Shown here in pieces: positions 22,589 to 31,513 of a stretch of DNA of 32,000 nt. The stretch's first letter is position 1; each line of letters starts with the position of its first letter. Made by a program: the position numbers and the translations under genes. The notes under the pieces were generated by a model. It made no database searches and was not told where the DNA came from. It was given only the letters and a program-made list of their open reading frames with translations. Where the stretch lies: positions 91,645-123,644 of the forward strand of contig PBAU01000010.1 in assembly GCA_002716355.1 (NCBI GenBank), in the 5' to 3' direction. The DNA is from a bacterium. Its GTDB lineage: Bacteria; UBP7; UBA6624.

Positions 22589-22662
22589 TGGGAGATGGTG
22601 GACTTGAACCACCGACCTCTTGAATGTCAATCAAGCGCTCTATCCAGCTGAGCTAATCCCCC
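22589..22662 (-). tRNA. tRNA-Val (anticodon GAC), CCA not encoded
   Basis: I folded a cloverleaf by hand: acceptor GGGGGAT/ATCTCCC, anticodon arm CTTGA-TTGACAT-TCAAG, T-arm GGTGG-TTCAAGT-CCACC, A73. Confidence 0.9.
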
Positions 22663-22684
22663 TTTTTTTATTATTCTCAAAATA

Positions 22685-22758
22685 AGGGCGCGGTCGGATT
22701 CGAACCGACGAATATAGGCTTTGCAGGCCCACGCCTTAAACCACTTGGCCACGCGCCC
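22685..22758 (-). tRNA. tRNA-Cys (anticodon GCA), CCA not encoded
   Basis: Acceptor GGGCGCG/CGCGCCC with U73, the Cys identity discriminator. Anticodon arm TGGGC-CTGCAAA-GCCTA and T-arm GTCGG-TTCGAAT-CCGAC. Confidence 0.9.
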
Positions 22759-22765
22759 AAGAAAA

Positions 22766-22838
22766 AGCGGAAGACGGGACTTGAACCCGCGACCTCCAGC
22801 TTGGGAAGCTGATGCTCTACCAACTGAGCTACTTCCGC
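22766..22838 (-). tRNA. tRNA-Gly (anticodon CCC), CCA not encoded
   Basis: Acceptor GCGGAAG/CTTCCGC, U73, anticodon arm TCAGC-TTCCCAA-GCTGG, T-arm GCGGG-TTCAAGT-CCCGT. Confidence 0.9.
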
Positions 22839-25063: not shown

Positions 25064-25140
25064 TGGTGGGGAGAGAGGGACTTGAACCCCCGACCTCCTG
25101 TTTGTAAGACAGGCGCTCTATCCAGCTGAGCTATCCCCCC
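25064..25140 (-). tRNA. tRNA-Val (anticodon TAC), 3' CCA encoded
   Basis: Acceptor GGGGGGA/TCTCCCC, A73 followed by CCA, anticodon arm CCTGT-CTTACAA-ACAGG, T-arm GGGGG-TTCAAGT-CCCTC. Confidence 0.9.
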
Positions 25141-25153
25141 CCACTTCTCAGCA

Positions 25154-25226
<73 letters not shown>

Positions 25227-25295
25227 ACGATTTGAGTATCCTATCATAATCGAGATTTAATGTGATACACTAAACTTATTGGGTGGTTTTAACCC

Positions 25296-25442
25296 ATTGG
25301 GTTATACCTTAAAAAGGGAAAATTGTGAGAATCAATTACGGCCCCCGCCACCGTAACTGGCACAAAAAAATATTGCCACTGTTTTGAAGAATGGGAAGGC
25401 AAGATTGTTTCAAACGCCAGTAGTCGGGAGACCTGCCTAAGC
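25296..25442 (+). ncRNA. Cobalamin (B12) riboswitch; boundaries approximate
   Basis: Conserved blocks appear in the correct order: AAAAAGGGAAaattGTGAGAATCaattACGGCCCCCGCCACCGTAA, then GCCACTG...GGGAAGGC, then the B12 box AGTAGTCGGGAGACCTGCC (25419-25437). The GGGAGG RBS of the next gene begins about 15 nt after the box. Confidence 0.85.
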
Positions 25443-25463
25443 TTAAAAATTACGGGAGGTAAT

Positions 25464-26600
25464 ATGATGAAAAAATTTATCAAAGCAAAAATATTATTAA
25501 TTATTCTTATTTTCTGCTCATGTTCGGGACAAACACCTGAAAATTCCAATAGAGCAAACCTTGTTCTTTTAACAAACGACTGGAGTCTAAATGAAACTAA
25601 CTTTTCTATAAACACAGAAAAAGGAGACTGGCTTGAAAGTTCTGAATATCTTGATATAAATGATACCTTTAGCGCTGATACCGTAGCTAGATCCTTCAAG
25701 GAGAATGAAGCTTGGTTTCTGGACAGGCATAATCATTCAGTTTCAAAAATCAGATTTTCAAAAAATGGCTCCCCCCAGATGGTTTCAAAATGGACATTAG
25801 AAGATAGTCCAAATCCACATGATGTATGGCTTCATAATCAAATTCTTTACATAACACAATATGAAAATGAATCTCTAATTATGCTTGACGAAGAAAACGG
25901 TCAAAAAATAACTGAAATCAACCTCTCAAATGGAGAATTGAGCAGTTGTGCTCAAAATGATGGAAAATCAGAAATGGATCAGATATTCATGAAAAATAAT
26001 AAAATTTACATTTCTATGCAATGTCTTGACACAACAGGTTCCTGGAATCCAGTTACTGAAGGAAAGCTAGCAGTCTTAGACACAAATACAAATTCAATAT
26101 CAGAAATAATAACGTTAAATGACTGCTTCAATCCAGTTGATGCTTCAGAAGGACCTTCTGGTAATTATTTATATTTTTCTTGCGTCAACAATTATGAAGG
26201 TGGAAATGATGGCTCGATAATAAAAATGAATTACGCTAACCACTCCATTCAAAAAATTGCTGATGAATCGTTATTCGGAGGAGACATTGGAGGAATAACA
26301 ATAAAAAATGATGAAAATATATTTGTAACTGTTACCGCTCCGGATTGGAGTCACACATGGGTTTCGAAAGTAAATATAAATGAAAACCAAGCAGAAACAA
26401 TACATCAAAAAAATACACCTTGGCATAACAGGATAGCTTTCAAGAACGAGACCTTGTGGCTTATAGGCAATGAAGGGCTTTACTCTATTTCTGATTGTGG
26501 TTTGTTTTGCACAGATGAACAATTGATAAAATCTTCATCAAAATCAGCTCAACTACTATTTTGGCTTGGAGATCCGATGTTCGGTGGTGGTGGGCATTAA
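25464..26600 (+). CDS. Riboswitch-controlled hypothetical lipoprotein, probably a beta-rich/propeller-like fold
   Basis: 378 aa. GGGAGG RBS. Signal peptide MMKKFIKAKILLIILIFCSCSG ends in Cys. Recurrent strand-like segments such as ILYITQYENESLIMLDEENGQKITEINL, KIYISMQC, KLAVLDTNTNSISEIITL and LYFSCVNN. Gly-rich C-terminus GDPMFGGGGH. Confidence 0.7.
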   Translation: MMKKFIKAKILLIILIFCSCSGQTPENSNRANLVLLTNDWSLNETNFSINTEKGDWLESSEYLDINDTFSADTVARSFKENEAWFLDRHNHSVSKIRFSKNGSPQMVSKWTLEDSPNPHDVWLHNQILYITQYENESLIMLDEENGQKITEINLSNGELSSCAQNDGKSEMDQIFMKNNKIYISMQCLDTTGSWNPVTEGKLAVLDTNTNSISEIITLNDCFNPVDASEGPSGNYLYFSCVNNYEGGNDGSIIKMNYANHSIQKIADESLFGGDIGGITIKNDENIFVTVTAPDWSHTWVSKVNINENQAETIHQKNTPWHNRIAFKNETLWLIGNEGLYSISDCGLFCTDEQLIKSSSKSAQLLFWLGDPMFGGGGH

Positions 26601-27561
26601 AAAGCTGATACATGCTTTATATGTTTTAATATTACTAATTCCCACCTCCTGCAAAGAAGCAGGTCAAGAACAAATTCAAAAATCTGAGATAAAGGAATGG
26701 AAAATAATATCTTTAGCACCATCAACAACAAGCATGCTTGCAGAGCTTGGCTTGTCTGAACACATTGTTGCAGTAGATTCATTTTCAAAAAAAGGTTCAA
26801 GTTTTTTAGACATTGGTGGACTCATTGATCCGAACTATGAATTAATAACAACAATCAAACCAACGCATATCATTGGCTTGAATAGCCATTCAAAAATCAA
26901 AGAGAAGCTGCATTTCATGAATTCGAAATGGATGTTAAATCCATCAGAAAGCCTTAATGATTATTTTCAAACAATCCAAGAAATAGGTAAAGAATTCAAT
27001 AAAGACCTTGAAGCAGAAAAACATTTGATGGAGATAGAAGAACTTGTAAAATCCTTAAGGGAGCTGATATCCCTAAATACAAATTGCGAATTGCTAAAAT
27101 TTGAATATTGCCAAAATGAAAAAAAAATAATGATGATTATTTCAAGAAAACCTGGTGAAATAACAAACATGTTGGCAGCTGGAAAAGGAACTTTCCTTTC
27201 TGAAATTATTGAAAAACTAGGTGTAAAAAACGCAATAAAGAATCAAGAAAGGGCATTGAATCCTTATTGGCCAAATATAGGTGCTGAAAGCTTAATTGCA
27301 ATAAACCCGGATGAAATATGGGAATTTGGAGAAAAGAGCGATGATCAAAATTTATGTTGCGATATTGATAGTTTTTTTTACCCTTACCTTAAGCTAGAAA
27401 ACATCACAGCTGTAAAAAATAAAAAAATAAAACTATTCCAGGATACCGACTTAACCGTTCCGGGAACAAATATAAAAAAAACATTGATTCGATTTGCAAT
27501 AGAGCTCTATCCTGAAATAAAAGATAATATAAAAATACTAATCAAGCCAGCGAGAAGCTGA
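26566..27561 (+). CDS. BtuF-like periplasmic binding protein (class III / Peripla_BP_2 type), probable lipoprotein
   Basis: 331 aa as tracked. The real start may be one of the GTG codons at 26584-26592, which would give VVVGIKKLIHALYVLILLIPTSC. Motif KIISLAPSTTSMLAELGLSEHIVAVDSFS...LITTIKPTHIIGL is typical of cobalamin/siderophore binding proteins. It overlaps or abuts the upstream ORF. Confidence 0.7.
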   Translation: MEIRCSVVVGIKKLIHALYVLILLIPTSCKEAGQEQIQKSEIKEWKIISLAPSTTSMLAELGLSEHIVAVDSFSKKGSSFLDIGGLIDPNYELITTIKPTHIIGLNSHSKIKEKLHFMNSKWMLNPSESLNDYFQTIQEIGKEFNKDLEAEKHLMEIEELVKSLRELISLNTNCELLKFEYCQNEKKIMMIISRKPGEITNMLAAGKGTFLSEIIEKLGVKNAIKNQERALNPYWPNIGAESLIAINPDEIWEFGEKSDDQNLCCDIDSFFYPYLKLENITAVKNKKIKLFQDTDLTVPGTNIKKTLIRFAIELYPEIKDNIKILIKPARS

Positions 27562-28890
27562 CCATAATTCAAGTGAATTATCACCTTTGTAACAAAGAAA
27601 ATCGCTACCATTAAAAGCTAACATAAGTGTTGAGCGTGACGCTAAATTTTGATCTTTTTTACCAATTACCTTCAAGCCAAAATGACCTGCTGCTAAGTAA
27701 TTTTGGCCTATGTCCAATAAGGAAAGTACGGAACTCTTCAAATTAATCTTTTTAAAGTTTTTATCTTCAAAATAAACACTTCCATCAACAGTCGAAAATG
27801 CTGAACCTGAAAAACTTAAACCTGCACAGCTCAAATCTTTTTTCTTTTTAGGCATGAAGCTGTTGTTTTTTTCGTAAAGCGTAAATAAGCTTCCATAAAG
27901 ATCAACAAGGTGAATGTTTTTCTCTCCATAAAAAACAATACTGATACCATTTTTTTCCTCAAAAACTACAGTGGGTTTATCATTTTCTACAAGGACTAAG
28001 GAACCTTCCAGAGAGCCTATTAGAAGCTTGTTGTTTTCAAGATCTGCACAAATAGGCTTTATGTTCAATTTAAAATCTGAAATAAGATTCAGGCCCTTGT
28101 CCCATTTTGAAACGAAGCCGTCTGAAGATACTGCAAATAAAAAATTCTTGTTTGAAACAAGTGCGATTATTTTTTTCTTGTGAAAATCTAAAATTCTTGA
28201 TTCGCTTATCTCTTTTTCATGAATGTTTAAAACAGCAATATCACCATTAACCTTTCCCGTAATCCAAAATCCTGAAAAATACGCTACTGCAGTCAAGCCA
28301 GAAAAATCAGAAAAAGCCCTGGGTGATTCACCAACCTCTACGAGGGCGTCATTTACCCATTCTCCATTTAAGTTTTCAGAAACGGCTTGATTGCATAATG
28401 CAATGGTTTTTAAATATTTTTTTTCGCTTAATGCATTTTTAATATCTCTTTTATAGAGTTTCTTTTTTTCTCTTTTTTCGCTTAAAGCCAGGTCTTCTAG
28501 ATGTTGTTTTGCTGATGCGTTGGAACCATCAACAGACAGAATTTCAAGAGCTATCTCTTTTGCCTTTGCAGGCTTAGAGCGCTTTAGCTTATTCATGTTT
28601 TCCAATAATTTTTCTATTTTTTCTTTTTTTAACTTCGTTAAAATTTCTTGGGCCCATTGTATGGATGGAGCCTTTTTAAGAACCTTTAGGACATGGTCAT
28701 AGCAGTCATCCCAACTACCATTTTCCAAAAGTTCCTCACATTTTTCTTTTTGCTCATCTGCCCACATTGCCTTATCTACAGATTCCCTACCACCTTCAAT
28801 AAGCCAAGAACCACAAAAACGACACTTGTAAGCACCTTGCATAATCATCTCTCCACAGTAAGGACAAGGTATTCTTTTTTCGTTACTCAT
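27538..28890 (-). CDS. Zinc-ribbon / helical / degenerate WD40-like beta-propeller protein (cytoplasmic, uncharacterised)
   Basis: 450 aa. N-terminus CPYCGEMIMQGAYKCRFCGSW is a C4 zinc ribbon, followed by a K/E-rich helical region. The remaining ~260 aa carry repeated motifs (SSDGFVSKWD, SLEGSLVLVEN, LYGSLFTLYE, TVDGSVYFED). The ATG overlaps the upstream gene stop by 8 nt. Confidence 0.7.
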   Translation of the reverse strand: MSNEKRIPCPYCGEMIMQGAYKCRFCGSWLIEGGRESVDKAMWADEQKEKCEELLENGSWDDCYDHVLKVLKKAPSIQWAQEILTKLKKEKIEKLLENMNKLKRSKPAKAKEIALEILSVDGSNASAKQHLEDLALSEKREKKKLYKRDIKNALSEKKYLKTIALCNQAVSENLNGEWVNDALVEVGESPRAFSDFSGLTAVAYFSGFWITGKVNGDIAVLNIHEKEISESRILDFHKKKIIALVSNKNFLFAVSSDGFVSKWDKGLNLISDFKLNIKPICADLENNKLLIGSLEGSLVLVENDKPTVVFEEKNGISIVFYGEKNIHLVDLYGSLFTLYEKNNSFMPKKKKDLSCAGLSFSGSAFSTVDGSVYFEDKNFKKINLKSSVLSLLDIGQNYLAAGHFGLKVIGKKDQNLASRSTLMLAFNGSDFLCYKGDNSLELWSASRWLD

Positions 28891-31513
28891 TTCTCTCTTC
28901 CATGTTTAAAAAAACCAAATTTTCCTCTGAAACAACAACGAGCATTTCAATATCTAAATAATTCAAAAAGCCTAATGTCCAAATCTTGCCCAAAGAAGGA
29001 TCCCAATTTATCTCAGATAACTGATTGCCATCTGAATCAAAAACAAACACCTTGTCAGTAAATTCAGTTGCAAAAGCAAAGCTACCACTATCATTCACCA
29101 CAACACTTCCAAGCTTGATAGATTTTGGATCTTTTAACATTTTTTTTGCTTTCGGAAAATCCTGAGATGCGTTCCCTATCCACACCTGACCATTTTGATC
29201 AAATGCAAAAATAGTTCCAGAATCATTAAGAAGGACATCTGTAACTGGTTGATTTATTGTCAAATTTCCTACAGCAGATAAACCCATAAGCTCTCCTTTC
29301 ATTACACTGTAAAGGGAAACAATGGAGTTGTTGGGTCCAAAATTATAACCAATAGCAATATGTTCATTATTGTTAACGCTTAACTTGATCTGTCTTGACT
29401 CAAGCCCATCCCAAACAAACTTACTAGAGCCATAGCCCATAACAACCTGGAGGGATCTTGTTTCACTCTCGTGAAAAACACCGAAACCATTATCTGCAAG
29501 ATCAAAAGCATCAAAATACCTTTTGCTTGAAATGATCTTTCTCTTTTCCGATCCGGCCTGAGAGTCCACCCACGCCCCTTTTGAAGAAGCCCAAAAAACT
29601 TCACTTTCAAAATGAACTTTTTGCACTAGTGAGTCGTCAACATCACCATCACCATTCTCTAAATTTGAAAATCTGAATGGTGAAGAAGATAATATACGAT
29701 ATCCACCCCTTACACCTAGCAACAATTCAATATTTTTAAAATCTTCAGATTGTGAAAGCGAATAAACCTGTTCCGGCAAGTTGAAAACATACACGGGAAG
29801 ATTGTCAATTTTAGAAAGTTCATAAAGTTGTGCAAAAATCAAAGCTTCATCTTCTTTCTCTAATAGCAACAAAGGGAAGGCTTTTTCTGAAAAATACCGT
29901 ACCTCTTCAGCAGTTGAGTTTTTTAAAAAATAATCTAAATTATCCTTAAACAAGCTTCCAAATGGTATTTTTTGAGATAGCTCAAACATAACTTCTGCTT
30001 CAAGAAGCCAATCCGGCTTCTCTATCCTAAGCCCACTTAAAAGCAAGGATAACTCTTTTAAAAAATCATCATCATAATCAAGATAAGGGTTGATGTGCAT
30101 GTCTATTTTTGTTGACTCTTTTATTTCGGACAATCTCATTTCGTAAGATTTTTTCAGAAGTAAAGATACCCACGCCAAATCTGGTTTCAAAGGTATTTTT
30201 TTCAACTCTGATATCGATTCTTTGAAATTTCCTGAATCAAATAAAGATTGAATTTTTATCTTTAAAGAAACAAAAGCGTCTTGCTCATAGCTTGCAAGCA
30301 GGTTTGAAACATCTGCACTTTCTGGCCATTCTTGACTTAAATCATTCAACAAGGATGAAGCTCTAACCCAATTTTCCTCTTCTATATAAGACCTTGCTTC
30401 CCTTATTTTGCTTTTTGGCGGAATGCTTGGGTCTTTCAGCAAAAGTGAAGATATCAAGAAAATAACCGCTATCGCACAAATTTGAAAGTATCTATTTTTT
30501 AAAAACTTTTTCTCTTTGATTTGGCTTATGAAAGATACATCACCCCTTCCTTCATCCTTTTTTTCAACTAATAATTCAACTTTTTCTCTTTTTTCTTTTT
30601 TAGGCTTTTTGGCTATTTTGTTTGATTTTGGCTTTTTGCCCCAGCCTAAAACTGTGCCATTTGAAAGCGTTCCAAGCAAAGCAGCACCATCTAAAGACCA
30701 TTCGAAAGAGGTTACTCCTTCGCTTTTTGAAATATTTGACAAATATTTTTTTCTTTTGTTCCAATCTAACAAAATTGCATTTTCATACTTTCTTCCAACG
30801 GCCAAAAGTGAATGTTTTGGAGAAAAAGATAACGATGTTACAGGAGCTTCACAATCAAAATTTTTCAAAAGTGTCCAATCCCCATTTTTCCATATAGAAA
30901 CAGAACCATCATCCGATCCTGTAGCTATTAAAAATCCACCGGAGTGAACAGCTAGAGATGAAATACTATCCCTATGTGCAGGTATTTCTGAAATCAAATT
31001 ACCTCTTATGTCTAAAACATGAAAACTAGGCCTTTCCCCAACTACCAAAAGAGAAGAATCTGGCAACTTTTCCAAACCATGCACACTTCCTATATCTATT
31101 TGCTTTTCCCAAATAGCCTCGCCATCTAAGCCCCAACATCTAACCCTGCCATCCTGGCCTCCAGAAACCAAAAAATTAGAAAAAACAGATAAAGAATAAA
31201 CAAAACCTTTAAAACCGGCTATCTTGCTTAACGTTTCCCCGGTTTCAACATCAACACGCAAAATAGAACCATTGCCTCCAACAAAAAGAGAGCCATCTTC
31301 ATGGAAGAACAAAGACAAAACCATACCTCCAAAACCCCTTATGACTTTCTTTCTAGATCCTGTTGAATAATCCCATATCAAAACACGATCGTCTAAACCA
31401 CCTGTGGCATAAATTTTTCCATTTGGATGAGCTGCAACACAAGCAGCTTCTGCTAGATGTTCTACCAGTTTAAAAGACTTCATAACTCTTACTGGCTCAA
31501 ATACAAGAACCAT
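28883..31513 (-). CDS. Membrane-spanning protein: N-terminal WD40 propeller, Lys-rich linker, single TM helix, helical region, C-terminal propeller-like domain
   Basis: 876 aa. WD-like blades are visible (GGLDDRVLIWD, GGQDGRVRCWG, GSDDGSVSIWK, SNGTVLGWG). The linker is KKPKSNKIAKKPKKEKREK and the TM helix is YFQICAIAVIFLISSLLL. The C-terminal part has DQNGQVWIGN and FDSDGNQLSEINWD. The start could instead be M11. Confidence 0.75.
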   Translation of the reverse strand: MVLVFEPVRVMKSFKLVEHLAEAACVAAHPNGKIYATGGLDDRVLIWDYSTGSRKKVIRGFGGMVLSLFFHEDGSLFVGGNGSILRVDVETGETLSKIAGFKGFVYSLSVFSNFLVSGGQDGRVRCWGLDGEAIWEKQIDIGSVHGLEKLPDSSLLVVGERPSFHVLDIRGNLISEIPAHRDSISSLAVHSGGFLIATGSDDGSVSIWKNGDWTLLKNFDCEAPVTSLSFSPKHSLLAVGRKYENAILLDWNKRKKYLSNISKSEGVTSFEWSLDGAALLGTLSNGTVLGWGKKPKSNKIAKKPKKEKREKVELLVEKKDEGRGDVSFISQIKEKKFLKNRYFQICAIAVIFLISSLLLKDPSIPPKSKIREARSYIEEENWVRASSLLNDLSQEWPESADVSNLLASYEQDAFVSLKIKIQSLFDSGNFKESISELKKIPLKPDLAWVSLLLKKSYEMRLSEIKESTKIDMHINPYLDYDDDFLKELSLLLSGLRIEKPDWLLEAEVMFELSQKIPFGSLFKDNLDYFLKNSTAEEVRYFSEKAFPLLLLEKEDEALIFAQLYELSKIDNLPVYVFNLPEQVYSLSQSEDFKNIELLLGVRGGYRILSSSPFRFSNLENGDGDVDDSLVQKVHFESEVFWASSKGAWVDSQAGSEKRKIISSKRYFDAFDLADNGFGVFHESETRSLQVVMGYGSSKFVWDGLESRQIKLSVNNNEHIAIGYNFGPNNSIVSLYSVMKGELMGLSAVGNLTINQPVTDVLLNDSGTIFAFDQNGQVWIGNASQDFPKAKKMLKDPKSIKLGSVVVNDSGSFAFATEFTDKVFVFDSDGNQLSEINWDPSLGKIWTLGFLNYLDIEMLVVVSEENLVFLNMEERNE

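What the first reader, a model, noticed from the sequence alone, without database searches (positions are those of the whole stretch)
25296..27561. Cobalamin riboswitch drives a minimal two-gene unit (unknown lipoprotein + BtuF-like binding protein) with no BtuB or BtuCD nearby
The B12 aptamer blocks are unambiguous. The only genes it can control are a 378-aa Cys-anchored hypothetical and a class III binding protein, because the next gene is convergent. Canonical B12 uptake loci put BtuF with BtuCD and/or a TonB-dependent BtuB. Here the binding protein is orphaned and partnered with an uncharacterised lipoprotein instead. That points to a non-canonical capture module, or a split transporter encoded elsewhere. 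The aptamer ends about 15 nt before the GGGAGG RBS and I see no stem plus U-tract, so control is probably translational.
Basis: partly seen in the sequence, partly recalled or inferred. Interest (0 to 1): 0.7.

Follow-up and report, generated by a model that had tools for sequence, protein, structure and literature searches.

The report
B12-switched BtuG-like lipoprotein plus orphan BtuF
A vitamin-B12-sensing RNA switch in an unclassified marine bacterium controls two lipoproteins, a distant relative of the Bacteroides B12-capturing protein BtuG and a BtuF-like binding protein. Neither has a membrane transporter next to it, which suggests BtuG-type B12 capture also exists outside Bacteroidota and without the usual outer-membrane partner.

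Summary
RF00174 matches window 25264-25454 at 86 bits. It is followed by ORF1 (25464-26600, lipoprotein) and ORF2 (26584-27561, PF01497 lipoprotein), then a convergent gene. No TonB-dependent receptor, FecCD permease or ABC ATPase lies within about 25 kb upstream or 10 kb downstream.

ORF1 is not an orphan fold. It is a beta-propeller whose profile reaches Bacteroides BtuG (hhalign probability 92-96%; BtuG chains are the top PDB hits by profile and by Foldseek). Eight of ten distant relatives sit beside BtuB-like receptors or BtuFCD-type ABC genes, and seven of the ten have a detected B12 riboswitch.

ORF2 keeps both glutamates that E. coli BtuF uses to dock on BtuC. Both genes are under purifying selection (dN/dS 0.09-0.20).

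Syntenic relatives of the same deep lineage fill the slot behind the propeller differently: binding protein only (this clade), binding protein + ATPase + permease (L009), or a DUF6580 membrane protein (L020).

Control is translational. The Shine-Dalgarno sequence sits in a covarying P13 hairpin loop that is complementary to aptamer loop L5.

Best reading: a B12-repressed capture pair feeding a permease encoded elsewhere. This is a new variant of a known kind. B12 binding and the partner permease are untested.

The parts
25228..25263 (+). Conserved intergenic leader between tRNA-Met (minus strand) and the aptamer. Probably holds the promoter(s).
   Evidence: Almost invariant in the five-genome alignment A2. 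No promoter passed the sigma-70 consensus scan, so the promoter assignment is inferred.
25264..25454 (+). Cobalamin riboswitch aptamer (RF00174, classical class with the P6 extension). The B12 box AGTCGGGAGACCTGCC lies at 25422-25437.
   Evidence: 86.2 bits, E 3.8e-20, full-length model match. Conserved upstream of ORF1 homologues in L001-L004, L009 and L020.
25340..25349 (+). Aptamer loop L5 region, GGCCCCCGCC. Proposed kissing-loop partner of the Shine-Dalgarno loop.
   Evidence: Invariant in A2. It contains CCCG, matching the published L5 consensus UCCCG (PMC10327014). Duplex with CGGGAGGU is predicted at -10.5 kcal/mol.
25449..25463 (+). P13 hairpin AUUAC-GGGAG-GUAAU. The Shine-Dalgarno GGGAGG (25454-25459) occupies the loop and the 3' stem, and the start codon follows directly.
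   Evidence: MFE hairpin of -2.7 kcal/mol. Across seven sequences of the lineage, 94% of cells are paired and 2 of 5 pairs change on both sides (AU>GC, AU>UA), while the loop GGGAG is invariant.
25464..26600 (+). ORF1: 378-aa lipoprotein with a beta-propeller core (residues ~72-343). It is a distant BtuG/YncE-family relative and the predicted corrinoid-capture protein. It carries a lineage-specific C-terminal tail, GDPMFGGGGH.
   Evidence: fold and profile links to BtuG; B12 contexts of relatives; dN/dS 0.09-0.14; C-terminal tail.
26584..27561 (+). ORF2: 325-aa lipoprotein (Cys23) of the cluster A / class III substrate-binding type (PF01497), BtuF-like. Its start overlaps the end of ORF1; an alternative TTG start is at 26566.
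   Evidence: Glu86 and Glu235 align with E. coli BtuF Glu72 and Glu202 and are invariant. dN/dS is 0.15-0.20.

Best explanation
This is a B12-repressed, translationally controlled bicistronic operon for corrinoid scavenging.

Regulation. When intracellular cobalamin is high, it binds the RF00174 aptamer. Loop L5 (CCCG) then kisses the loop of the downstream P13 hairpin (CGGG of the GGGAGG Shine-Dalgarno sequence). This stabilises P13 and hides the ribosome binding site, which abuts the ATG. When B12 is scarce the site is free. ORF1 is translated, and ORF2, whose start overlaps the end of ORF1, follows.

Proteins. ORF1 is a lipid-anchored beta-propeller distantly homologous to Bacteroides BtuG. 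It is inferred to capture corrinoids with high affinity outside the cytoplasmic membrane. ORF2 is a lipid-anchored BtuF-like binding protein. It is inferred to take the corrinoid to a type II (BtuCD/FecCD-type) ABC permease encoded elsewhere in this genome.

Shown:
- the riboswitch, the operon anatomy and the absence of a local transporter;
- conservation and purifying selection on both genes;
- the profile and fold link of ORF1 to BtuG;
- the B12-locus context of relatives;
- the conserved docking glutamates of ORF2;
- covariation in P13.

Inferred:
- B12 binding by either protein;
- hand-over from ORF1 to ORF2;
- the existence and identity of the unlinked permease;
- where in the cell envelope ORF1 sits.
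For: Riboswitch and platform:
- RF00174 at 86 bits; no terminator.
- P13 pairs in 94% of cells, with 2 of 5 pairs compensatory, and an invariant GGGAG loop across GC 35-67% relatives.
- L5/L13 complementarity fits the published kissing-loop mechanism (PMC10327014).

ORF1:
- AlphaFold model: pLDDT 64, pTM 0.67, propeller core.
- Foldseek top hits are BtuG2, BtuG1, BT1954, BT2095 and XusB, E 2e-10.
- A profile of ORF1 plus its 41 best remote relatives hits 12 BtuG/YncE-family chains first in the PDB, E 3e-8 to 1e-5. Eight of the 41 relatives hit Pfam DUF5074.
- hhalign of the lineage profile against ten Bacteroides BtuG sequences gives probability 91.8% (local, E 7.5e-7) and 96.3% (global, E 1.3e-9), with the lipobox Cys aligned.

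Context of ten relatives at 20-33% identity:
- L009: riboswitch, propeller, binding protein, ATPase, FecCD.
- L013: riboswitch, binding protein, FecCD, ATPase, propeller.
- L010, L014, L016, L023: riboswitch, TonB-dependent receptor, propeller, mostly beside cob salvage genes.
- L024: receptor, propeller.
- L020: riboswitch, propeller, DUF6580.
- L015 and L025 lack any B12 context.

ORF2:
- PF01497.
- Its profile hits 4m7o, V. cholerae BtuF (5e-53), ShuT and E. coli BtuF (5e-44).
- Both BtuF docking glutamates are invariant.
- It has a lipobox Cys.

Both genes have dN/dS 0.09-0.20. L009 and L020 are syntenic members of the same lineage. The version carrying BtuCD therefore shows what the binding protein normally works with.
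Against: - ORF1 itself matches no Pfam or NCBIfam model. The profile of its closest relatives alone does not reach BtuG in the PDB, so the link needs intermediate sequences or profile-profile comparison.
- Many unrelated propellers score nearly as well in Foldseek.
- The model resolves about six blades with confidence, and both termini are poorly predicted.
- The hhalign register differs between local and global modes. Conservation of the BtuG2 B12-contact residues (Glu55, Phe58, Gln93 and others) therefore cannot be established.
- ORF2 is far below the BtuF equivalog cut-off (25.8 against 234 bits). It scores better against IsdE, and its fold matches haem and siderophore binders equally well. 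BtuF Trp66 is not conserved.
- No permease was found for this genome.
- The organism's phylum and envelope type are unknown.
Confidence: 0.6

Rival explanations
1. The pair is a self-contained capture or hoarding module. The two lipoproteins bind and hold corrinoids at the cell surface or in the periplasm, as a reservoir or to deny competitors. There is no dedicated ABC permease, and uptake goes through some unrelated route, for example a DUF6580-type or ECF-type carrier elsewhere.
For: - No permease, ATPase or receptor lies within about 35 kb.
- The propeller is the constant element, while the membrane partner changes between relatives: ABC in L009, DUF6580 in L020.
- Bacteroides uses extra B12-binding lipoproteins (BtuH, BtuJ, BtuK) as reservoirs (PMC13616437).
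Against: - ORF2 keeps both glutamates used to dock on BtuC, and they are invariant across the family.
- Its nearest relatives, inside and outside the lineage, are encoded with an ATPase and a FecCD permease.
- Unlinked binding proteins that share a permease are common (general knowledge).
Confidence: 0.15
2. The cargo is not complete B12. It could be a related molecule whose uptake is sensibly shut off when B12 is plentiful, such as cobinamide or another incomplete corrinoid, a cobalt chelate, or another tetrapyrrole such as haem.
For: - ORF2's best single-sequence matches are haem and iron binders: IsdE 2e-16 and 4m7o 7e-12.
- BtuF Trp66 is not conserved.
- BtuG2 itself binds cobinamide (PMC6143338).
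- XusB, a siderophore binder, ties with BtuG in Foldseek.
Against: - Seven of ten distant propeller relatives are riboswitch-linked to BtuB-like receptors, BtuFCD-type genes or cobalamin salvage genes such as CbiB, CobD, CobS, CobT and CobU.
- No iron- or haem-related gene or regulator was found in the window.
- Incomplete corrinoids would still count as corrinoid scavenging, so that version is a sub-case of the main explanation rather than a true rival.
Confidence: 0.12
3. ORF1 is an enzyme or chaperone rather than a binding protein, for example a propeller-fold hydrolase or lactonase acting on corrinoids or on the cell envelope. It would merely be co-regulated with a B12 binding protein.
For: - Propeller folds include lactonases, Drp35 and luciferin-regenerating enzyme among the hits.
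- ORF1 has invariant His, Asp and Cys residues and a peculiar invariant C-terminal GGGGH tail.
Against: - The enzyme hits rank below the BtuG group in the profile search.
- Relatives sit immediately after TonB-dependent receptors, as BtuG does.
- The protein has a lipoprotein anchor.
Confidence: 0.08
4. The unit is a decaying remnant of a btuFCD operon that lost its permease genes and no longer functions.
For: The syntenic relative L009 has the ATPase and permease that are missing here.
Against: - Both ORFs are intact in five or more genomes spanning 53-96% protein identity.
- dN/dS is 0.09-0.20.
- The riboswitch, Shine-Dalgarno hairpin, lipobox cysteines and docking glutamates are all conserved.
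Confidence: 0.03

Closest known systems
BtuG (BT1954/BtuG2, BT1490, BT2095) of Bacteroides: surface lipoprotein, seven-bladed propeller, femtomolar B12 binder and lid of BtuB (PMC6143338, PMC10404256)
   Same: - N-terminal lipoprotein signal followed by a beta-propeller.
- Encoded in a B12-riboswitch-controlled uptake locus, together with a lipoprotein BtuF.
- Detectable profile-profile homology (probability 92-96%), and the top structural and profile hits in the PDB.
   Different: - Only about 11-16% identity, and ORF1 itself has no DUF5074 hit.
- No adjacent BtuB and no TonB-dependent receptor within about 35 kb.
- No Bacteroidota lipoprotein export signal after the Cys.
- An extra C-terminal GDPxFGGGGH tail.
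- The host is an unclassified deep-branching marine lineage, whereas BtuG was reported as exclusive to Bacteroidetes and lid/receptor pairs as essentially Bacteroidota-specific.
E. coli BtuF / BtuFCD (type II ABC importer for B12)
   Same: - PF01497 two-lobe fold (AlphaFold pLDDT 86).
- Both BtuC-docking glutamates (Glu72, Glu202) are conserved.
- The relatives in L009 and L022 are encoded with an ABC ATPase and a FecCD permease.
   Different: - 17% identity; below the NCBIfam BtuF cut-off (25.8 against 234 bits).
- Trp66 is not conserved.
- Lipid-anchored, as in B. thetaiotaomicron BtuF, not soluble.
- Two Cys-containing insertions.
- No btuCD next to it.
E. coli btuB and env8 HyCbl translational cobalamin riboswitches (L5-L13 kissing loop controlling the ribosome binding site)
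   Same: A classical aptamer followed by a short P13 hairpin whose loop is complementary to L5 and whose sequence contains the ribosome binding site. There is no terminator.
   Different: - The platform is very compact: a 15-nt hairpin that abuts the ATG, with the Shine-Dalgarno sequence itself as the kissing partner.
- Its function has not been tested.
YncE (E. coli) and XusB (Bacteroides): propeller proteins partnered with TonB-dependent receptors
   Same: The same propeller superfamily by Foldseek and profile search.
   Different: These belong to iron or siderophore regulons rather than B12 regulons, and each is partnered with a receptor that is absent here.

Membership tests
Cobalamin riboswitch RF00174 | Covariance-model score above the curated gathering threshold over the full aptamer | tested here: met
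   86.2 bits against 31.5, model positions 1-189. Homologous leaders score 78-89 bits.
Cobalamin riboswitch RF00174 | Expression platform with a P13 hairpin whose loop L13 can pair with L5 (kissing loop) and which governs the ribosome binding site or a terminator | tested here: met
   Hairpin at 25449-25463 with the Shine-Dalgarno sequence in its loop. Compensatory changes in 2 of 5 pairs. CCCG/CGGG complementarity with L5. No terminator. Ligand response was not tested.
BtuG (Bacteroidota B12-capturing surface lipoprotein) | Seven-bladed beta-propeller fold | tested here: inconclusive
   The model has five complete four-stranded blades plus a partial sixth. The termini have pLDDT below 50. The best Foldseek matches are seven-bladed BtuG, XusB and YncE, at TM about 0.5.
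BtuG (Bacteroidota B12-capturing surface lipoprotein) | Sequence homology to BtuG1-3 | tested here: met
   hhalign probability 91.8-96.3%, E 7.5e-7 to 1.3e-9. An extended profile hits BtuG chains first. However, single-sequence and close-family searches fail, and ORF1 has no DUF5074 hit.
BtuG (Bacteroidota B12-capturing surface lipoprotein) | N-terminal lipobox Cys followed by the Bacteroidota lipoprotein export signal (surface exposure) | tested here: not met
   The lipobox Cys20 is present and invariant. The sequence after it (SGQTPEN) lacks the acidic export signal described for BtuG. Surface exposure is unknown.
BtuG (Bacteroidota B12-capturing surface lipoprotein) | Encoded next to, and forming a lid complex with, a BtuB TonB-dependent transporter | tested here: not met
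   No Plug or TonB_dep_Rec gene in the window or the flanks. More distant relatives do sit next to such receptors.
BtuG (Bacteroidota B12-capturing surface lipoprotein) | Located in a B12-riboswitch-regulated btu locus | tested here: met
BtuG (Bacteroidota B12-capturing surface lipoprotein) | Direct high-affinity corrinoid binding through conserved contact residues (BtuG2 Glu55, Phe58, Gln93, Asn107, Ser131, Trp149, Ser195, Gln219, Trp272) | tested here: inconclusive
   The N-terminal motif NETNF (or TNDW) aligns with BtuG NEGNF, but the register changes between alignments. Binding itself cannot be tested with these tools.
BtuF (vitamin B12 ABC transporter substrate-binding protein) | PF01497 cluster A fold | tested here: met
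   PF01497 at E 2e-12. Model pLDDT 86 with TM 0.6-0.8 to cluster A binding proteins.
BtuF (vitamin B12 ABC transporter substrate-binding protein) | Score above the NCBIfam equivalog cut-off (NF002894) | tested here: not met
   25.8 bits against a cut-off of 234. IsdE scores higher at 59.8 bits, also below its own cut-off.
BtuF (vitamin B12 ABC transporter substrate-binding protein) | The two lobe glutamates that dock on BtuC (E. coli Glu72, Glu202) | tested here: met
   They align with the invariant Glu86 and Glu235 of ORF2 in A8. Their role in E. coli is taken from established knowledge of the BtuCD-F structures.
BtuF (vitamin B12 ABC transporter substrate-binding protein) | Encoded with, or shown to work with, BtuCD | tested here: not met
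   No FecCD or ABC gene is nearby. The orthologue in L009 has both. The rest of the genome could not be searched.

The most novel reading that the evidence does not exclude
In this deep-branching lineage, and independently in the L013 organism, a BtuG-type propeller works without any TonB-dependent receptor. It would be the constant front-end of corrinoid uptake, handing its cargo to interchangeable inner-membrane systems: a BtuF-like binding protein with an ABC permease, linked in L009 and unlinked in the window clade, or a DUF6580 membrane protein in L020. DUF6580 would then be a previously unrecognised class of B12 transporter. The lineage-specific C-terminal GGGGH tail might take part in cobalt ligation or in the hand-over.
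Probability: 0.3. Interest if true: 0.75.

Novelty: new variant of a known kind. Interest (0 to 1): 0.6.

Why it matters
BtuG is the best-known bacterial B12 'super-binder'. It has been described as exclusive to Bacteroidetes and as a lid for BtuB (PMC6143338; bioRxiv 10.1101/2023.03.17.533168). This locus and the relatives collected here point to three things.

- Distant BtuG-type propellers belong to B12 regulons in other lineages as well.
- They can be paired with ABC importers, or with an uncharacterised DUF6580 membrane protein, instead of a TonB-dependent receptor.
- In an abundant but unclassified Tara Oceans lineage, the capture proteins are kept under riboswitch control while the permease is encoded elsewhere.

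B12 is a limiting, traded micronutrient in the ocean, so new capture proteins matter for predicting who competes for it. The work also yields concrete, clonable candidates: ORF1, ORF2 and DUF6580.

Tried and rejected
- Single-sequence searches with ORF1 (Pfam, NCBIfam, PDB phmmer) and the close-family profile against the PDB gave nothing. Only the exhaustive HMMER search and profiles built from it linked ORF1 to BtuG.
- The word-indexed protein search found just five close relatives.
- Mapping the BtuG2 ligand-contact residues onto ORF1 failed because the local and global hhalign registers disagree.
- Foldseek on the ORF2 model cannot separate B12, haem and siderophore binders.
- Phylum assignment failed. 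NCBI labels the MAG only as 'bacterium'. Outside its own clade, GatB's best relative is an unnamed 48% match. All other hits are about 35-41% identical, and the few named ones are Bipolaricaulota, Caldisericia, Thermotogae, Riflebacteria and Anaerolineae. Shine-Dalgarno usage in the window (10 of 25 genes) is uninformative.
- An alignment of 42 remote relatives was too divergent for a metagenome locus scan. The narrower alignment returned four loci, one of which (L020) was informative.
- The sigma-70 scan found no promoter in the leader.
- Whole-leader MFE folding is no better than shuffled sequence (z -0.67), as expected for a tertiary-structured aptamer.
- The decaying-remnant idea was rejected on dN/dS.
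Full report
**1. Observation**

Rfam places a full-length cobalamin riboswitch (RF00174) at window 25264-25454 on the plus strand: 86.2 bits against a gathering score of 31.5, E 3.8e-20.

The aptamer sits directly after two minus-strand tRNA genes, Val and Met, at 25064-25227. Two plus-strand ORFs follow:
- ORF1, 25464-26600, 378 aa.
- ORF2, listed from TTG 26566. Public gene calls start it at GTG 26584 (325 aa). It ends at 27561.

The next gene (27538-28890) is on the minus strand and overlaps the end of ORF2 by 24 nt, so the riboswitch can control only these two genes.

The rest of the 32-kb window (GC 35%) encodes housekeeping or unrelated proteins. These include ThrRS, IF3, L20, GatA/B, CysRS, PurH, SOD, an SNF2 helicase, glycosyltransferases and WD40 proteins. 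tblastn with FecCD, ABC ATPase, three TonB-dependent receptors and DUF6580 as queries finds nothing in the window. It also finds nothing in the flanks of close relatives, which reach about 10 kb past ORF1.

**2. The unit is conserved and under selection**

Four MAG loci (L001-L004, 66-84% ORF1 identity) keep the same arrangement: tRNAs, riboswitch (82-89 bits), ORF1, ORF2, the convergent 450-aa gene and the WD40 gene.

The same protein is found on Tara Oceans contigs up to 243 kb long. NCBI labels the source only as 'bacterium' (MBG98497.1). Outside its own clade, GatB's best relative is an unnamed 48% match. All other hits are about 35-41% identical, and the few that carry an organism name are scattered deep phyla. 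This is therefore an unclassified, deep-branching marine lineage.

Pairwise dN/dS is 0.09-0.14 for ORF1 and 0.15-0.20 for ORF2. Neither gene is a decaying remnant.

**3. Expression platform**

No terminator-like site lies between the aptamer and the ATG.

The bases 25449-25463 form the hairpin AUUAC-GGGAG-GUAAU, at -2.7 kcal/mol. The Shine-Dalgarno sequence GGGAGG (25454-25459) occupies its loop and 3' stem, and the start codon follows at 25464.

In two distant syntenic relatives the stem reads GUUUC/GAGAC (L009) and GUUUC/GAAAC (L020), with the same loop. Across seven sequences, 94% of cells pair and two of the five pairs change on both sides. Versions with the 3' partner slid by 1-3 columns show no such changes on both sides; cells paired fall to 31-51% for five of the six slides and to 80% at -3.

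Aptamer loop L5 (GGCCCCCGCC, 25340-25349) is invariant. It contains CCCG, close to the published L5 consensus UCCCG, and is complementary to CGGG of the hairpin loop.

This is the published L5-L13 kissing-loop arrangement that controls ribosome access in the E. coli btuB and env8 riboswitches (PMC10327014). Translational repression by B12 is thus well supported structurally, although it has not been tested. Other, unrelated relatives use different platforms: an intrinsic terminator in L013 and an anti-Shine-Dalgarno hairpin in L010.

**4. What ORF1 is**

ORF1 has a signal peptide with an invariant Cys20 (F-x-S-C) and six further invariant cysteines. It matches no Pfam or NCBIfam model.

Searches gave the following:
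- The word-indexed search found only five close relatives.
- The exhaustive profile search found three cluster representatives below 1e-30 and 381 below 1e-3.
- The AlphaFold model (pLDDT 64, pTM 0.67) is a beta-propeller over residues 72-343, with poorly predicted termini.
- Foldseek against the PDB puts the Bacteroides B12-binding lipoproteins BtuG2, BtuG1, BT1954 and BT2095, and the siderophore-binding XusB, on top (E 2e-10, TM about 0.5). Many other propellers follow closely.

Fold alone is therefore weak evidence. Three further results carry the link to BtuG:
- A profile of ORF1 plus its 41 best remote relatives finds twelve BtuG/YncE-family chains as its first twelve PDB hits, E 3e-8 to 1e-5.
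- Eight of those relatives match Pfam DUF5074.
- A profile of the lineage only (window clade plus P0006) was aligned to ten Bacteroides BtuG sequences taken from Table S2 of PMC6143338. It gives hhalign probability 91.8% (E 7.5e-7, local) and 96.3% (E 1.3e-9, global), with the lipobox cysteines aligned.

The close-family profile alone does not reach BtuG in a PDB search.

The BtuG2 ligand-contact residues could not be mapped reliably, because the alignment register shifts between modes.

**5. Genomic context of relatives**

I examined ten relatives at 20-33% identity to ORF1.

| Locus | Arrangement |
|---|---|
| L009 (P0006) | riboswitch, propeller, binding protein, ABC ATPase, FecCD |
| L013 | riboswitch, binding protein, FecCD, ATPase, propeller |
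| L010 | riboswitch, TonB-dependent receptor, propeller, CobD, CbiB |
| L014 (a 'Deltaproteobacteria' MAG) | riboswitch, receptor, propeller |
| L016 | riboswitch, CobS, BtuFCD, BtuR, receptor, propeller, cob genes |
| L023 | riboswitch, receptor, propeller, beside CbiB, CobD, CobQ, CobS, CobT, CobU |
| L024 | receptor, propeller, on a contig that starts just before the receptor |
| L020 | riboswitch, propeller, DUF6580 |
| L015, L025 | no B12 context |

Eight of the ten are in B12 or receptor contexts, and seven have a detected riboswitch. This is strong guilt by association for a corrinoid-related role. It mirrors the BtuB-BtuG pairing of Bacteroides.

**6. A variable slot in one lineage**

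L009 and L020 belong to the same deep lineage as the window:
- L020 (GC 51%) keeps ThrRS, the tRNA clusters, CysRS, the riboswitch, the propeller, the convergent zinc-ribbon/propeller gene and the WD40 gene in the same order.
- The gene downstream of the L009 operon is homologous to window 27538-28890 (E 2e-11).
- The L020 propeller is 54% identical to that of L009.

At this one chromosomal site, the gene or genes after the propeller differ:
- binding protein only (window clade);
- binding protein + ATPase + permease (L009);
- a 185-aa DUF6580 membrane protein (L020; PF20221 at E 1e-53).

The propeller is the constant element, and the membrane partner turns over.

**7. What ORF2 is**

ORF2 is a lipoprotein; its Cys23 is nearly invariant (at least 90% of sequences) among relatives. 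It has the PF01497 cluster A fold (model pLDDT 86).

As a single sequence it is closest to an S. epidermidis 'iron-binding protein' (4m7o) and to IsdE. A family profile hits 4m7o (8e-80), V. cholerae BtuF (5e-53), ShuT (4e-47) and E. coli BtuF (5e-44). Foldseek cannot separate B12, haem and siderophore binders. It falls far below the NCBIfam BtuF cut-off (25.8 against 234 bits).

When ORF2 is aligned with E. coli BtuF, fetched from NC_000913.3, BtuF Glu72 and Glu202 fall on Glu86 and Glu235 of ORF2. Both columns are invariant across all eleven sequences. From the BtuCD-F structures, which I cite from memory, these two glutamates are the residues that dock on BtuC. BtuF Trp66 is not conserved.

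The ORF2 orthologue in L009 (34% identity) shares two Cys-containing insertions with it and is followed by an ATPase and a permease. The closest binding protein outside the lineage (P0347, 31%) is also followed by both.

I conclude that ORF2 is built to dock on a type II ABC permease, and that in this clade the permease must be encoded elsewhere. I could not search the rest of the genome for it.

**8. Mechanism proposed**

- B12 replete: cobalamin binds the aptamer, L5 kisses L13, P13 is stabilised and the Shine-Dalgarno sequence is hidden. Neither protein is made.
- B12 scarce: both lipoproteins are made. ORF1 captures corrinoids and ORF2 delivers them to an unlinked BtuCD-type permease.

Steps shown and steps inferred are listed under the best explanation. 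Overall confidence is 0.6.

**9. Comparison with what is known, and novelty**

The BtuG literature describes the family as exclusive to Bacteroidetes (PMC6143338). It describes lid/receptor pairs as essentially restricted to Bacteroidota (bioRxiv 10.1101/2023.03.17.533168). A 2026 review discusses BtuH and BtuJ beyond Bacteroidota, but not BtuG. In B. thetaiotaomicron the BtuF proteins are also lipoproteins.

This locus works like a BtuG plus BtuF pair, but it fails two defining BtuG features: an adjacent BtuB, and the Bacteroidota export signal. ORF2 fails the BtuF equivalog threshold. I therefore file it as a new variant of a known kind, not as a member of either family.

**10. Limits**

- B12 binding is untested.
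- The ORF1 model is of moderate quality.
- Taxonomy and envelope type are unknown.
- The remote homologues' taxa are mostly unnamed.
- The sample of contexts is small (ten).
- The partner permease has not been found.

Noticed in passing
L020:8066-8623 (contig JACKQG010002674.1), the slot that ORF2 occupies in the window: A 185-aa polytopic membrane protein of Pfam DUF6580 (E 1e-53) follows the riboswitch and propeller in a fully syntenic relative, in place of the binding protein. There is no literature on it and no PDB relative by sequence. It is a candidate for an unrecognised corrinoid transporter.
   Followed up: partly
window 26565-26597 (ORF1 residues 368-378): ORF1 ends in an invariant tail, GDP[M/Y]FGGGGH-COOH. 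The tail is shared with the L009 and L020 propellers but is absent from 40 remote relatives, which end at the GLPPxxIxF strand. A terminal His on a Gly4 linker could be a cobalt ligand or a docking peptide. It remains unexplained.
   Followed up: partly
window about 27100-27140 and 27370-27390 (ORF2 residues ~173-185 and ~262-266 in 325-aa numbering): ORF2 and its L009 orthologue share two Cys-containing insertions (NTNCELLKFEYC and QNLCC). These are missing from E. coli BtuF and other cluster A binding proteins. They may form disulfides or an interface specific to the propeller partner.
   Followed up: no
window 27538-28890 (-) and 28883-31513 (-): A 450-aa protein with an N-terminal CPYC...C..C zinc-ribbon and a beta-propeller-like C-terminus, and an 876-aa WD40-repeat protein, are conserved downstream neighbours throughout the lineage (window, L001-L004, L020; partial in L009). 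Their function is unknown. WD40 proteins of this size are uncommon in bacteria.
   Followed up: no
window 22589-22838 and 25064-25227 (-): Two tRNA clusters (Val-GAC, Cys-GCA, Gly-CCC; Val-TAC, Met-CAT) bracket cysS and a 253-aa coiled-coil protein. The arrangement is conserved even in the GC 51% relative L020. The riboswitch leader abuts tRNA-Met, so divergent promoters probably share 25228-25263.
   Followed up: no
L013:1230-1300 and L010:355-395: Riboswitches upstream of distant propeller loci use other expression platforms: an intrinsic terminator in L013, and a hairpin whose loop is anti-Shine-Dalgarno in L010. The same gene family is therefore under transcriptional or translational B12 control depending on the lineage.
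   Followed up: partly
whole window; The organism is labelled only 'bacterium' at NCBI. Outside its own clade, its GatB has one unnamed 48% relative and otherwise about 35-41% matches. Sister MAGs come from projects that target novel lineages, so the lineage may be at phylum or class level and undescribed.
   Followed up: partly
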